Positions 56,712 through 60,157 of a stretch of DNA of 64,000 bases are shown here, piece by piece. The notes beneath the pieces were generated by a model, which did not search any database, had not been told where the DNA came from, and saw only the letters and a program-made list of their open reading frames with translations. The position numbers and the translations under genes were made by a program. The DNA lies in the NCBI RefSeq assembly GCF_009914755.1, contig NC_060931.1; one strand, given 5' to 3'. How positions within the stretch are numbered: position 1 is the first letter of the stretch; the number at the start of each line of letters is the position of its first letter. This stretch comes from the human T2T-CHM13v2.0 reference genome, Homo sapiens.

Positions 56712-57314
56712 TTTTTTTTAAATTTTACTATTATACTTTAAGTTTTAGGGTACACGCGCACAATGTGCAGGTTAGTTACATATGTATACATGTGCCATGC
56801 TGGTGTGCTGCACCCATTAACTCGTCATTTAGCATTAGGTATATCTCCTAAAGCTATCCCTCCCCCCTCCCCCCACCCCACAACAGTCCCCAGAGTGTGA
56901 TGTTCCCCTTCCTGTGTCCATGTGTTCTCATTGTTCAATTCCCACCTATGAGTGAGAATATGCGGTGTTTGGTTTTTTGTTCTTGTGATAGTTTACTGAG
57001 AATGATGATTTCCAATTTCATCCATGTCCCTACAAAGGACATGAACTCATCATTTTTTATGGCTGCATAGTATTCCATGGTGTATCTGTGCCACATTTGC
57101 TTAATCCAGTCTATCCTCGTTGGACATTTGGGTTGGTTCCAAGTCTTTGCTGTTGTGAATAGTGCCACAATAAACATACGTGTGCATGTGTCTTTATAGC
57201 AGCATGATTTATAATCCTTTGGGTGTATACCCAGTAATGGGATGGCTGGGTCAAATGGTATTTCTAGTTCTAGATCCCTGAGGAATCGCCACACTGACTT
57301 CCACAAGAGTTGAA
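56712..57314 (-). mobile_element. L1PA3-like 3' terminal ~0.6 kb with T-tail (antisense arm)
   Basis: ttatactttaagttttagggtaca...cttccacaagagttgaa; ORF 56935..57327 is the ORF2 C-terminus. Confidence 0.95.
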
Positions 57315-60157
57315 TACAAACTACCATCAGAGAATACTACAAACACCTCTATGCAAATAAACTAGAAAATCTAGAAGAAATGGATAAATTCCTCGACACA
57401 TACACCCTCCCAAGACTAAACCAGGAAGAAGTTGACTCTCTGAATAGACCAATAACAGGCTCCGAAATTGTGGCAATAATCAATAGCTTACCAACCAAAA
57501 AGAGTCCAGGACCAGATGGATTCACAGCCGAATTCTACCAGAGGTACAAGGAGGAACTGGTACCATTCCTTCTGAAACTATTCCAATCAATAGAAAAAGA
57601 GGAAATCCTCCCTAACTCATTTTATGAGGCCAGCATCATCCTGATACCAAAGCCGGGCAGAGACACAACCAAAAAAGAGAATTTTAGACCAATATCCTTG
57701 ATGAACATTGATGCAAAAATCCTCAGTAAAATACTGGCAAACTGAATCCAGCAGCACATCAAAAAGCTTATCCACCAGGATCAAGTGGGCTTCATCCCTG
57801 GGATGCAAGGCTGGTTCAATACACACAAATCAATAAATGTAATCCAGCATATAAACAGAACCAAAGACAAAAACCACATGATTATCTCAATAGATGCAGA
57901 AAAGGCCTTTGACAAAATTCAACAACCTTCATGCTAAAACTCAATAAATTAGGTATTGATGGGACGTATCTCAAAATAATAAGAGCTATCTATGACAAAC
58001 CCACAGCCAATATCATACTGAATGGGCGAAAACTGGAAGCATTCCCTTTGAAAACTGGCACGAGACAGGGATGCCCTCTCTCACCACTCCTATTCAACAT
58101 AGTGTTGGAAGTTCTGACCAGGGCATTTTGGCAGGAGAAGGAAATAAAGGGTATTCAATTAGGAAAAGAGGAAGTCAAATTGTCCCTGTTTGCAGATGAC
58201 ATGATTGTATATCTAGAAAACCCCATTGTCTCAGCCCAAAATCTCCTTAAGCTGATAAGCAACTTCAGCAAAGTCTCAGGATACAAAATCAACGTACAAA
58301 AATCACAAGCATTCTTATACACCAATAACAGACAAACAGAGAGCCAAATCCTGAGTGAACTCCCATTCACAATTGCTTCAAAGAGAATAAAATACCTAGG
58401 AATCCAACTTACAAGGGATGTGAAGGACCTCTTCAAGGAGAACTACAAACCACTGCTCAATGAAATAAAAGAGGATACAAAGAAATGGAAGAACGTTCCA
58501 TGCTCATGGGTAAGAAGAATCAATATTGTGAAAATGGCCATACTGCCCAAAGTAATTTATAGATTCAATGCCATCCCCATCAAGCTACCAATGACTTTCT
58601 TCACAGAATTGGAAAAAACTACTTTAAAGTTCATATGGCACCAAAAAAGACCCCGCATTGCCAAGTCAATCCTAAGCCAAAAGAACAAGCCTGGAGTCAT
58701 CACACTACCCGACTTCAAACTATACTACAAGGCTACAGTAACCAAAACAGCATGGTACTGGTACCAAAACAGATATAGATCAATGGAACAGAACAGAGCC
58801 CTCAGAAATAATGCCACATATCTACAACTATCTGATCTTTGACAAACCTGAGAAAAACAAGCAATGGGGAAAGGATTCCCCATTTAATAAATGGTGCTGG
58901 GAAAACTGGCTAGCCATATGTAGAAAGCTGAAACTGGATCCCTTCCTTACACCTTATACAAAAATTAATTCACGATGGATTAAAGACTTAAACGTTAGAT
59001 CTAAAACCATAAAAACCCTAGAAGAAAACCTAGGCATTACCATTCAGGACATAGGCATGGGCAAGGACTTCATGTCTAAAACACCAAAAGCAATGGCAAC
59101 AAAAGCCAAAATTGACAAATGGGATCTAATTAAACTGAAGAGCTTCTGCACAACAAAAGAAACTACCATCAGAGTGAACAGGCAACCTACAAAATGGGAG
59201 AAAATTTTCGCAACCTACTCATCTGACAAAGGGCTAATATCCAGAATCTACAATGAACTCAAACAAATTTACAAGAAAAAAACAACCCCATCAAAAAGTG
59301 GGCGAAGGACATGAACAGACACTTCTCAAAAGAAGACATTTATGCAACCAAAAAACACATGAAAAAGTGCTCATCATCACTGGCCATCAGAGAAATGCAA
59401 ATCAAAACCACAATGAGATACCATCTCACACCAGTTAGAATGGCAATCATTAAAAAGTCAGGAAACAACAGGTGCTGGAGAGGATGTGGAGAAATAGGAA
59501 CACTTTTACACTGTTGGTGGGACTGTAAACTAGTTCAACCCTTGTGGAAGTCAGTGTGGCAATTCCTCAGGGATCTAGAACTAGAAATACCGTTTGACCC
59601 AGGCATCCCATTACTGGGTATATACCCAAAGGATTATAAATCATGCTGCTATAAAGACACATGCACACGTATGTTTATTGTGGCACTATTCACAATAGCA
59701 AAGACTTGGAACCAACCCAAATGTCCAACAATGATAGACTGGATTAAGCAAATGTGGCACATATACACCATGGAATACTATGCAGCCATAAAAAATGATG
59801 AGTTCATGTCCTTTGTAGGGACATGGATGAAATTGGAAATCATCATTCTCAGTAAACTATCACAAGAAGAAAAAACCAAGCACTGCATGTTCTCACACAT
59901 AGGTGGGAATGGAACAATGAGAACACATGGACACAGGAAGGGGAACATCACACTCTGGGGACTGTTGTGGGGTGGGGGGAGGAGGGAGGGATAGCATTAG
60001 GAGATACACCTAATGCTAAATGACGAGTTAATGGGTGCAGCACACCAGCATGGCACATGTATACATATGTAACTAACCTGCACATTGTGCACATGTACCC
60101 TAAAACTTAAAGTATAATAATAATAATAATAAAATAAAAATAAAAAATAAAAAAAAA
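57313..60157 (+). mobile_element. 5'-truncated L1PA3-like LINE-1 (~2.8 kb: RT domain, C-terminus, 3'UTR, tail), inactive
   Basis: RT motifs [10 protein letters not shown] and FADD; premature stop at 57743-57745 plus frameshifts; A-rich tail at 60118-60157. Confidence 0.96.

What the first reader, a model, noticed from the sequence alone, without database searches (positions are those of the whole stretch)
56712..60157. Two-tailed L1: two L1PA3-like cDNAs fused 5'-to-5', replacing more than 1.2 kb of target DNA
Seen: an antisense L1 3' end with T-tail (56712-57314) joins a sense 2.8-kb L1 with A-tail (57313-60157) through a 2-nt AA microhomology (gttgAAtacaaac). This is not ordinary twin priming, where the inverted piece is a non-overlapping upstream segment; here the same terminal 584 nt is present twice. 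There is no TSD. The left flank breaks off in an L1MA at ...ttattc|tttt. The right flank starts part-way through an MST-type LTR, then resumes the L1MA ~1.24 kb further along (measured against homologous positions 59790 and 58547 of the young L1). Both tails abut endonuclease-like T-rich sites on opposite strands. The arms share variants that differ from the consensus I recall: AAGcAAATG (KQMW rather than KKMW) and cTTGTGGAAG. Inference: two concurrent TPRT reactions on opposite strands, from the same or sister source elements, joined to each other with loss of the intervening DNA. Alternative: two independent insertions followed by deletion and gene conversion. The arms do differ at GCtTTAGG/GCaTTAGG and CATaTTC/CATgTTC.
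Basis: partly seen in the sequence, partly recalled or inferred. Interest (0 to 1): 0.8.

Follow-up and report, generated by a model that had tools for sequence, protein, structure and literature searches.

The report
Two young L1s joined head-to-head
Two fragments of a young L1 retrotransposon sit head-to-head, tails outward, in a DNAH11 intron where about 1.5 kb of older repeat DNA is missing; this may record two copying reactions that joined each other, as seen in tumours, but two separate insertions cannot be ruled out.

Summary
An antisense 603-nt L1 3' end with a T-tail (56712-57314) abuts a sense 2.8-kb L1 with an A-tail (57313-60157). They share two A's at the junction, and the last ~590-610 nt of L1 is present twice, inverted. 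No target-site duplication exists. The left tail starts in a native TTTTTT/AA endonuclease site of an old antisense L1. The right tail cuts a MaLR-type LTR, and about 1.25 kb of old L1 plus 0.17-0.34 kb of LTR is missing.

This is not ordinary twin priming: 12 of 45 reference copies carry normal twin-priming inversions and 0 of 45 are two-tailed.

It cannot be proven here.

The arms are of similar age. They share one private variant (0 of 44 relatives; pairwise p about 0.01-0.03). They differ at two lineage-marker sites, so one RNA or one source is unlikely. A sequential insertion with deletion, or a later deletion, gives the same structure. Ape orthologues would decide.

Verdict: a possible germline member of a known kind, of moderate interest.

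The parts
56530..56711 (-). Old antisense L1 (3' part of ORF2 and 3' UTR). It is broken at 56711 inside its own T-run.
   Evidence: Aligns to young-L1 positions 59812-59985 at 65% identity. 40 scored genomic relatives at 78-83%. 10 fetched relatives continue ...TTCTTTTTT/AAGGCTGAATAATATTCC past the break.
56712..56729 (-). T-tail of the left arm: T8, partly the target's native T-run, then AAATTTTAC. It is the reverse complement of a short degenerate A-tail.
   Evidence: Relatives of the target have 5-7 T here, so at least about 2 T plus AAATTTTAC come from the insertion.
56712..57314 (-). Left arm: an antisense young L1 3' end covering the ORF2 C-terminus and the 3' UTR.
   Evidence: The best genomic relatives are 97-98% identical.
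57313..57314 (.). AA microhomology at the 5'-to-5' junction.
57313..60157 (+). Sense young L1, 5'-truncated. By my arithmetic from the alignment it starts near ORF2p residue 410. The body runs to about 60119 and an A-rich tail runs from 60120 to 60157.
59534..60144 (+). Right arm: the part of the sense L1 that is repeated, inverted, as the left arm.
59749..59749 (+). Shared private A-to-C variant (K to Q in ORF2p). Its partner in the left arm is at 57099.
   Evidence: 0 of 44 close relatives carry it. Genome-wide there are 110 exact 25-mers with C against 17,886 with A.
59869..60007 (+). Patch of clustered changes found only in the right arm: 9 of its 12 arm-specific changes. It includes both lineage-marker differences, at 59889 and 59996.
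   Evidence: permutation p about 0.005. A 35-mer from the patch is unique in the genome at up to 1 mismatch.
60158..60304 (-). Terminal part of a MaLR-type LTR, cut at 60158 by the A-tail. Its natural terminus ...ACAATA(A/G)CA abuts the old L1.
   Evidence: 471 first-look candidates, 40 scored at 76-88% identity, with matches ending at window positions 60270-60289. Alignment with 8 copies whose shared spans are 298-474 nt.
60281..60310 (.). 15-nt tandem duplication (60281-60295 and 60296-60310, one mismatch) straddling the border between the LTR and the old L1.
   Evidence: Read.
60305..61493 (-). The old antisense L1 resumes. Position 60305 corresponds to young-L1 position 58547, and the element is collinear down to at least 57313.

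Best explanation
Most likely, by a small margin, this was one germline retrotransposition accident in an ancestral hominoid. The age estimate uses recalled dates for L1PA3.

Proposed steps:
1. L1 endonuclease nicked the + strand at the native TTTTTT/AA site of an old L1 (56711/56712).
2. The - strand was nicked about 1.4-1.6 kb to the right, inside a MaLR-type LTR.
3. Each 3' end primed reverse transcription on the poly(A) tail of an L1 RNA. These were probably two different RNAs of the same subfamily era. This gave a 603-nt cDNA from the left and a 2.8-kb cDNA from the right, both growing towards each other.
4. The two cDNA 3' ends paired through two bases, each was filled in on the other, and the DNA between the nicks was lost.

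This is 'dual priming' in a deletion geometry, the germline counterpart of the joined synchronous L1 intermediates seen in tumours.

Shown: the anatomy, the left endonuclease site, the absence of a TSD, the missing target DNA, the similar age of the arms, and the difference from ordinary twin priming.
Inferred: that the two reverse transcriptions were simultaneous, and that the missing DNA was lost in that event.
For: - Two-tailed inverted structure with a 2-nt junction microhomology.
- No TSD for either arm or for the pair.
- The T-tail sits exactly on a canonical target site. 8 of 10 related old L1 copies have at least 5 T followed by A there, and the other 2 have TTTATT/AA.
- Both broken target repeats are collinear, with a gap of about 1,250 nt of old L1 plus about 170-340 nt of LTR.
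- Both arms have the same nearest relatives (L002, L012, L010, L006 rank high). They have similar private loads, 8 and 10-12 changes in about 586 nt, so the ages cannot be told apart.
- They share one private transversion that is absent from 44 of 44 relatives. Only 29 of 1,081 sequence pairs share any pair-private non-CpG variant, and 11 of 1,081 share a transversion.
- Ordinary twin priming looks different: 12 of 45 reference loci have inversions, all from non-overlapping upstream pieces, and 0 of 45 are two-tailed.
- Precedents: the dual priming hypothesis; two 5'-truncated inverted L1s joined at their 5' breakpoints, each with its own poly(A); the two ends of one break extended from different mRNAs; two L1 cDNA intermediates recombining, including two large deletions.
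Against: - No feature of the human sequence requires simultaneity. Sequential models give the identical end product.
- The arms differ at two linked lineage-marker sites. At 59889 the right arm has G and the left has A. At 59996 the right arm has A and the left has T. Among 45 relatives, 11 of 13 with G at the first site have A at the second, and 24 of 32 with A at the first have T at the second. In 98 copies unselected at these sites, the left arm's haplotype is rare, 1 AAT plus 1 GAT. Two RNAs from different sources are therefore needed, and in a germline with sparse L1 activity that is a priori rarer than a one-RNA event.
- The right-hand target site cannot be shown to be endonuclease-like. 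0 of 8 related LTR copies have an A-run there.
- In the reporter study, joining of two cDNAs with 6 or 0 bp of homology was not detected. That assay needs GFP to be rebuilt, so the bearing is limited.
- My order-of-magnitude estimate is inference with recalled rates. It puts the expected number of look-alikes from sequential events at about one per genome, so one such locus is not surprising without this mechanism.
Confidence: 0.4

Rival explanations
1. Two events. One young L1 inserted normally. Later a second L1 of the same era inserted nearby in the opposite orientation with a kb-scale target deletion (L1 insertion-mediated deletion). The far breakpoint of that deletion happened to fall inside the first L1. 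This removed the first L1's 5' part and inner TSD, the old L1 segment and most of the LTR.
For: - Gives exactly the observed sequence.
- Absence of a TSD and loss of target DNA are the hallmarks of L1-mediated deletion, cited. The primary papers are recalled, not read.
- The arms carry different lineage-marker haplotypes, as expected for independent insertions from different sources.
- 2-nt microhomology is usual for L1 5' junctions (recalled).
Against: - It needs the deletion breakpoint to land in a same-era inverted L1. Young L1 sequence is roughly 1% of the genome (my estimate).
- 0 of 45 reference loci show a second, inverted copy of the L1 3' end within the 3.5-kb locus.
- The shared private variant must then be chance (p about 0.01-0.03) or later gene conversion.
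Confidence: 0.28
2. Three events. Two ordinary insertions, each with its own TSD, landed tail-out within a few kb. A later deletion, by end joining and perhaps provoked by the inverted repeat, removed both 5' parts, both inner TSD copies and the DNA between.
For: - Same end product.
- 2-nt microhomology fits end joining.
- Different haplotypes in the arms.
- L1 copies cluster locally: 6 non-duplicate pairs of the rare-variant copies lie within 100 kb of each other.
Against: - It needs both deletion breakpoints to fall inside the two L1s.
- A 611-nt inverted repeat remains, so instability was not resolved.
- The shared private variant is again chance or conversion.
Confidence: 0.2
3. One RNA. 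[quoted passage not shown]
For: - Shared private C at 59749/57099.
- Both arms share T at 59634, a state that 9 of 45 relatives have.
- Both lineage-site differences lie inside a patch of clustered private changes in the right arm. That patch might be a later mutational accident.
Against: - Two of the right arm's private changes would have had to hit the two lineage-marker sites and produce exactly the alternative lineage alleles. My estimate is about 4 in 10,000, even allowing for the patch.
- No donor or sister carrying the patch exists in the genome.
- The tails differ in structure.
Confidence: 0.05
4. DNA-level inverted duplication of the right arm, by replication template switching or fold-back, rather than a second reverse transcription.
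For: Inverted duplications with microhomology junctions arise this way. The arms are 96.5% identical.
Against: - The left arm begins with its own, differently built tail set exactly on a native TTTT/AA site. That is a target-primed signature.
- No flanking non-L1 DNA from the right side was copied along with it.
Confidence: 0.03

Closest known systems
Dual priming (Meyer, Srikanta, Conlin, Batzer 2010, PMC2837659; sections 10 and 11 read in full)
   Same: Two poly(A)-primed cDNAs start from the two nicked strands. This gives a poly(T) at one end, a poly(A) at the other, and an internal junction between antisense and sense L1.
   Different: Their 39 loci have only a poly(T) stretch and no inverted L1 body. 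They keep TSDs, showed no junction microhomology, and could not separate one RNA from two. The authors call the mechanism speculative. Here the inverted arm has 603 nt of body, the arms look like two different RNAs, and about 1.5 kb of target is missing instead of a TSD.
Synchronous L1 insertions and recombination between two L1 insertion intermediates in tumours and L1-expressing cells (10.1101/2024.08.27.596794; 10.1101/2024.12.14.628481; PMC13526784; passages only)
   Same: Two 5'-truncated L1s in inverted orientation are joined at their 5' breakpoints. Each has its own poly(A) and endonuclease motif. The join bridges two breaks, including deletions. Use of different templates at the two ends has been observed.
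   Different: Those events are somatic or experimental, mostly translocations or Mb-scale events, in cells with many concurrent insertions. This would be a fixed germline event on a 1.5-kb scale, inferred from an old sequence without an observed pre-insertion state.
Twin priming (Ostertag and Kazazian 2001; recalled, and described)
   Same: There is an inverted piece at the 5' side, a microhomology junction, and two priming events on opposite strands.
   Different: In twin priming the inverted piece is an upstream segment primed internally, there is one tail only, TSDs are present, and the overlap is short (medians 12 bp and 22 bp). Here the overlap is about 590-610 nt, there are two tails, and there is no TSD. 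12 of 45 reference loci show the ordinary form.
L1 insertion-mediated deletion (Gilbert et al. 2002, Symer et al. 2002, Han et al. 2005; recalled or seen only in reference lists)
   Same: An L1 insertion without a TSD replaces target DNA on the kb scale.
   Different: Classical cases have one L1 with one tail. The far junction is L1 5' end to target DNA, not L1 to an inverted L1 that carries its own tail.

Membership tests
Ordinary twin priming | The inverted piece is an upstream L1 segment that does not overlap the sense piece, or overlaps it by only tens of bp | tested here: not met
   The same roughly 590-610 nt is present in both orientations. In 12 of 12 reference inversions the pieces are non-overlapping or overlap by a few bp.
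Ordinary twin priming | A single poly(A) tail, with TSDs flanking the whole insertion | tested here: not met
   There are two tails and no TSD.
Dual priming (Meyer 2010) | Poly(T) at the 5' side and poly(A) at the 3' side of one insertion, with an endonuclease site at the poly(T) side | tested here: met
   T-tail at 56712 on a native TTTTTT/AA site (8 of 10 relatives). A-tail at 60120-60157.
Dual priming (Meyer 2010) | Two different mRNAs served as templates | tested here: inconclusive
   The arms differ at two linked lineage-marker sites, which favours two RNAs. They also share one private variant.
Dual priming (Meyer 2010) | TSDs from the usual staggered nicks | tested here: not met
   No TSD. 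About 1.4-1.6 kb of target is missing.
Joined synchronous L1 intermediates (2024-2026 studies) | Two 5'-truncated L1s in inverted orientation, joined at their 5' breakpoints, each with a poly(A) tail | tested here: met
Joined synchronous L1 intermediates (2024-2026 studies) | Endonuclease motif at both outer ends | tested here: inconclusive
   Met on the left. On the right, 0 of 8 related LTR copies have an A-run at the homologous place, and the window's own sequence on the lost side is unknown.
Joined synchronous L1 intermediates (2024-2026 studies) | Both insertions arose in one event, with no intermediate state carrying two canonical insertions | not testable with these tools
   This needs orthologous loci of other primates. 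None is held here.
L1 insertion-mediated deletion | Target DNA present before the insertion is absent after it, and there is no TSD | tested here: met
   Shown indirectly. The old L1 is collinear on both sides with a gap of about 1,250 nt by the young-L1 ruler. The LTR keeps about 132 nt of a 298-474 nt span. No TSD. The pre-insertion allele itself was not seen.
L1PA3 subfamily (name recalled) | Diagnostic substitutions of the curated subfamily consensus | not testable with these tools
   No repeat library is on hand. Shown only: the nearest genomic copies are 97-98% identical, and the arm encodes ORF2p residues 1151-1274.

The most novel reading that the evidence does not exclude
This locus is a fixed germline 'dual priming' event that used two different L1 RNAs. 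It would be the first natural example, outside tumours and reporter cells, in which both cDNA bodies survive. It would show that two converging target-primed reverse transcriptions about 1.5 kb apart joined each other in an ancestral hominoid germline and replaced the DNA between them. My four searches of the library found no earlier example. It would mean that the L1-intermediate recombination now described as a driver of cancer rearrangements has also shaped primate genomes, and that more such two-tailed, TSD-less pairs await counting in T2T assemblies.
Probability: 0.4. Interest if true: 0.55.

Novelty: new member of a known kind. Interest (0 to 1): 0.4.

Why it matters
Recombination between two L1 insertion intermediates has only recently been shown in tumours and engineered cells. 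The 2010 dual-priming idea for primate genomes was never backed by a locus that keeps both L1 bodies. In the library searched, no later paper uses the term together with LINE-1.

A germline case would link the two lines of work. It would give a search image: tail-out L1 pair, 5'-to-5' microhomology joint, no TSD, broken collinear target repeats. That image could be used to measure how often L1 removes DNA this way in evolution.

Locally the event has no evident functional consequence. It lies in a DNAH11 intron, about 480 bp downstream of an exon.

Tried and rejected
The question was answered instead from fetched copies.
2. I looked for lineage markers in the 1.5 kb upstream of the right arm. 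Only 17 of 45 loci reached far enough. They gave 4 polymorphic columns, which look like CpG-type sites and were uninformative.
3. I tested for a source lineage carrying the shared C variant. I examined 98 of the 108 other genomic carriers; 10 were not listed by the tool. They are of mixed age: 3 are at least 96% identical to the right arm, 28 are 94-96%, 46 are 90-94%, and 21 are under 90%. None has the arms' haplotype. The two nearest in haplotype (L123, L136) are no closer than ordinary relatives. Rejected.
4. I looked for a donor or sister of the right arm's mutated patch. A 35-mer at up to 1 mismatch matched only the window itself. The neighbouring old L1s do not carry the patch alleles consistently. 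Rejected.
5. Gene conversion between the arms as the source of the shared C is neither supported nor excluded. Left-arm private changes at 57118, 57116 and 57086 would bound a tract to under 30 nt, unless they arose later.
6. The old L1 at 62337-64000 covers nearly the same L1 interval as the 'missing' piece. I considered whether it is the displaced piece. I rejected this on position only: it is a further antisense L1 piece about 0.8 kb beyond the first, it starts at ruler position 59910, beyond the break at about 59798, and it runs off the window. I ran no direct test.
8. PMC7058536 (passages) and PMC13009371 (passages) held nothing on two-tailed L1 pairs.
9. Supplementary figures and tables of the two preprints and of PMC13526784 were not seen. 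They may list short-range two-L1 deletions.
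Full report
**Observation**

The window holds an inverted repeat with arms at 56704-57314 and 59534-60144. The arms are 611 nt long, 95% complementary and 2,219 nt apart. A gapped alignment of the L1 body shows 20 differences in about 586 nt.

The left arm is an antisense L1 3' end. It begins with TTTTTTTTAAATTTTAC at 56712. The right arm is the end of a continuous sense L1 (57313-60157) with an A-rich tail from about 60120.

The right arm translates as ORF2p residues 1151-1274 of the solved human protein (8sxt). It has Q where that protein has K in IDWIKKMW. By my arithmetic from that alignment, the sense element starts near ORF2p residue 410.

The joint reads gttgAAtacaaac. The left arm's homology runs through GTTGAA, and the right element's homology can begin at AATACAAA, judged against the old L1 in the flank. 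The two A's at 57313-57314 can therefore belong to either arm.

No TSD exists for the left arm, the right element or the pair.

**Target DNA**

Left of the T-tail lies an old antisense L1. It aligns to the young L1, used here as a ruler, at 59812-59985 and breaks at about 59798.

Ten related old L1 copies fetched from the same genome read ...TTCTTTTTT/AAGGCTGAATAATATTCC across the homologous place. Eight of the ten have at least 5 T directly followed by A, and two have TTTATT/AA. The left tail therefore starts in a native, canonical L1 endonuclease site, and part of the T8 run belongs to the target.

Right of the A-tail, 60158-60304 matches the terminal part of a dispersed LTR. There were 471 first-look candidates, and 40 were scored at 76-88% identity. 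I recognise it as MaLR-type (MST/MLT1-like), but the name is recalled and not tested.

Eight fetched LTR copies share spans of 298-474 nt. The window keeps about 132 nt plus a 15-nt tandem duplication at the border. About 170-340 nt of the LTR is therefore missing if it was a solo LTR.

The old L1 resumes at 60305, which corresponds to 58547 on the ruler, and stays collinear for more than 1 kb. Taking the two old L1 pieces as one element, about 1,250 nt of it is gone. The total loss is about 1.4-1.6 kb, against 3,446 nt gained.

At the right break, 0 of 8 LTR relatives have an A-run. An endonuclease-like site there cannot be shown.

**Not ordinary twin priming**

Among 45 reference copies of the same L1 type, each fetched with 1.5-kb flanks, 12 carry a 5' inversion. 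In all 12 the inverted piece is an upstream segment that abuts or nearly abuts the sense piece. None of the 45 repeats the 3' end.

Published overlaps at twin-priming junctions have medians of 12 bp (PMC12016303, passages) and 22 bp (10.1101/2024.08.27.596794, passages).

**Are the arms sisters?**

- *Relatives and age.* Both arms find largely the same best relatives at 97-98% identity. They carry similar private loads: 8 changes in the left arm, and 10 in the right arm plus 2 at lineage sites. Their ages cannot be told apart. About 1.4-2% divergence from the family majority fits what I recall for L1PA3.
AAGcAAATG is private: 0 of 44 relatives have it.
- *Frequency of the C variant.* Genome-wide there are 110 exact 25-mers with C and 17,886 with A. 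I examined 98 of the 108 other C-carriers. They are of mixed age, and none has the arms' haplotype, so no C-bearing source lineage exists.
- *Empirical null.* As a null, 29 of 1,081 pairs among the 47 aligned sequences share any pair-private non-CpG variant, and 11 of 1,081 share a pair-private transversion. The sharing is therefore unusual (p about 0.01-0.03) but not decisive.
- *Lineage-marker differences.* The arms differ at 59889 (right arm G, left arm A) and at 59996 (right arm A, left arm T). These sites are linked in the relatives: 11 of 13 with G at the first site have A at the second, and 24 of 32 with A at the first have T at the second. A third site, at which both arms agree, is linked as well.
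- *Unselected sample.* In the 98 copies unselected at these sites, the haplotypes at the three sites are GGA in 59, AAA in 15, AGA in 9, and AAT plus GAT in only 2. The right arm keeps ancestral-like states, and the left arm belongs to a minor derived type.
- *The patch.* Both differences lie within a patch of the right arm where 9 of its 12 arm-specific changes cluster (permutation p about 0.005). The patch has no sister or donor in the genome.

My weighing is inference. Two different source RNAs are roughly 15-40 times better supported than a single RNA or source. The shared C is then either chance or a short gene conversion.

**Mechanism**

Three histories end in the same sequence.

- (a) One event: two converging target-primed reverse transcriptions whose cDNAs joined, with loss of the DNA between the nicks.
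- (b) A second L1 insertion with a kb-scale target deletion whose far breakpoint fell inside an earlier inverted L1.
- (c) Two normal insertions followed by a deletion.

History (a) has clear precedents:
- Meyer et al. proposed 'dual priming' by two mRNAs for primate loci with a 5' poly(T). They had no locus with an inverted L1 body and called the idea speculative (PMC2837659, sections 10-11 read in full).
- Tumour long-read data show bridges made of two 5'-truncated L1s in inverted orientation, joined at their 5' breakpoints, each with its own tail.
- L1-expressing cells show the reciprocal end of a break extended from a different mRNA.
- A reporter study recovered recombination of two L1 cDNA intermediates, including two large deletions. 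Joining with 6 bp of homology or less was not detected in that assay.

Histories (b) and (c) need coincidences. With recalled rates and rough arithmetic, I estimate they would yield on the order of one such locus per genome. I therefore rank (a) first, with a confidence of only 0.4.

**Novelty**

The kind is known. A fixed germline instance with both bodies preserved would be a new member. My four searches found none in the open-access and bioRxiv library. Subscription papers and supplements were not seen. The decisive test is the primate orthologues, which these tools do not hold.

Noticed in passing
59869-60007 (right arm): 9 of the right arm's 12 arm-specific changes cluster in about 140 nt, and 6 of them in 43 nt. 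The substitution types are mixed. A 35-mer from the patch is unique in the genome. The cause is unknown; candidates are error-prone repair, conversion from a lost donor, or reverse-transcription errors.
   Followed up: partly
60281-60310: A 15-nt tandem duplication (ACAATAaCAGGTAGT / ACAATAgCAGGTAGT) straddles the natural end of the LTR and the first 6 nt of the old L1.
   Followed up: no
56755-56757 (left arm): Two neighbouring A-to-G changes turn GTGCACATG into GTGCGCGTG and create two CpGs. At the two sites, 41 and 44 of 45 relatives have A.
   Followed up: no
56706-56719 and 60149-60163: Both priming strands end in the same ATTC plus T-run. On the left, the + strand reads ...TTATTC TTTT. 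On the right, the - strand reads ...GGATTC TTTT. This is probably a 4-nt coincidence.
   Followed up: no
62337-64000: A second old antisense L1 corresponds to young-L1 positions 59910-58563. It is interrupted at about 62877-63203, which overlaps the masked stretch 62887-63148 and may be a younger insertion. It runs off the window.
   Followed up: no
L007, L009, L010, L015, L019, L023, L027, L032, L039, L042, L044, L047: 12 of 45 (27%) L1 copies of this type carry ordinary twin-priming 5' inversions. This is close to the published 18-22%.
   Followed up: partly
L115 / L116 (G000:C7:58858651-58859051 and 58893815-58894215): Two carriers of the rare C variant lie 35 kb apart on opposite strands near the chr7 centromere. 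They are 100% identical over 401 nt, so this is an inverted duplication of the region, not a retrotransposition pair.
   Followed up: partly
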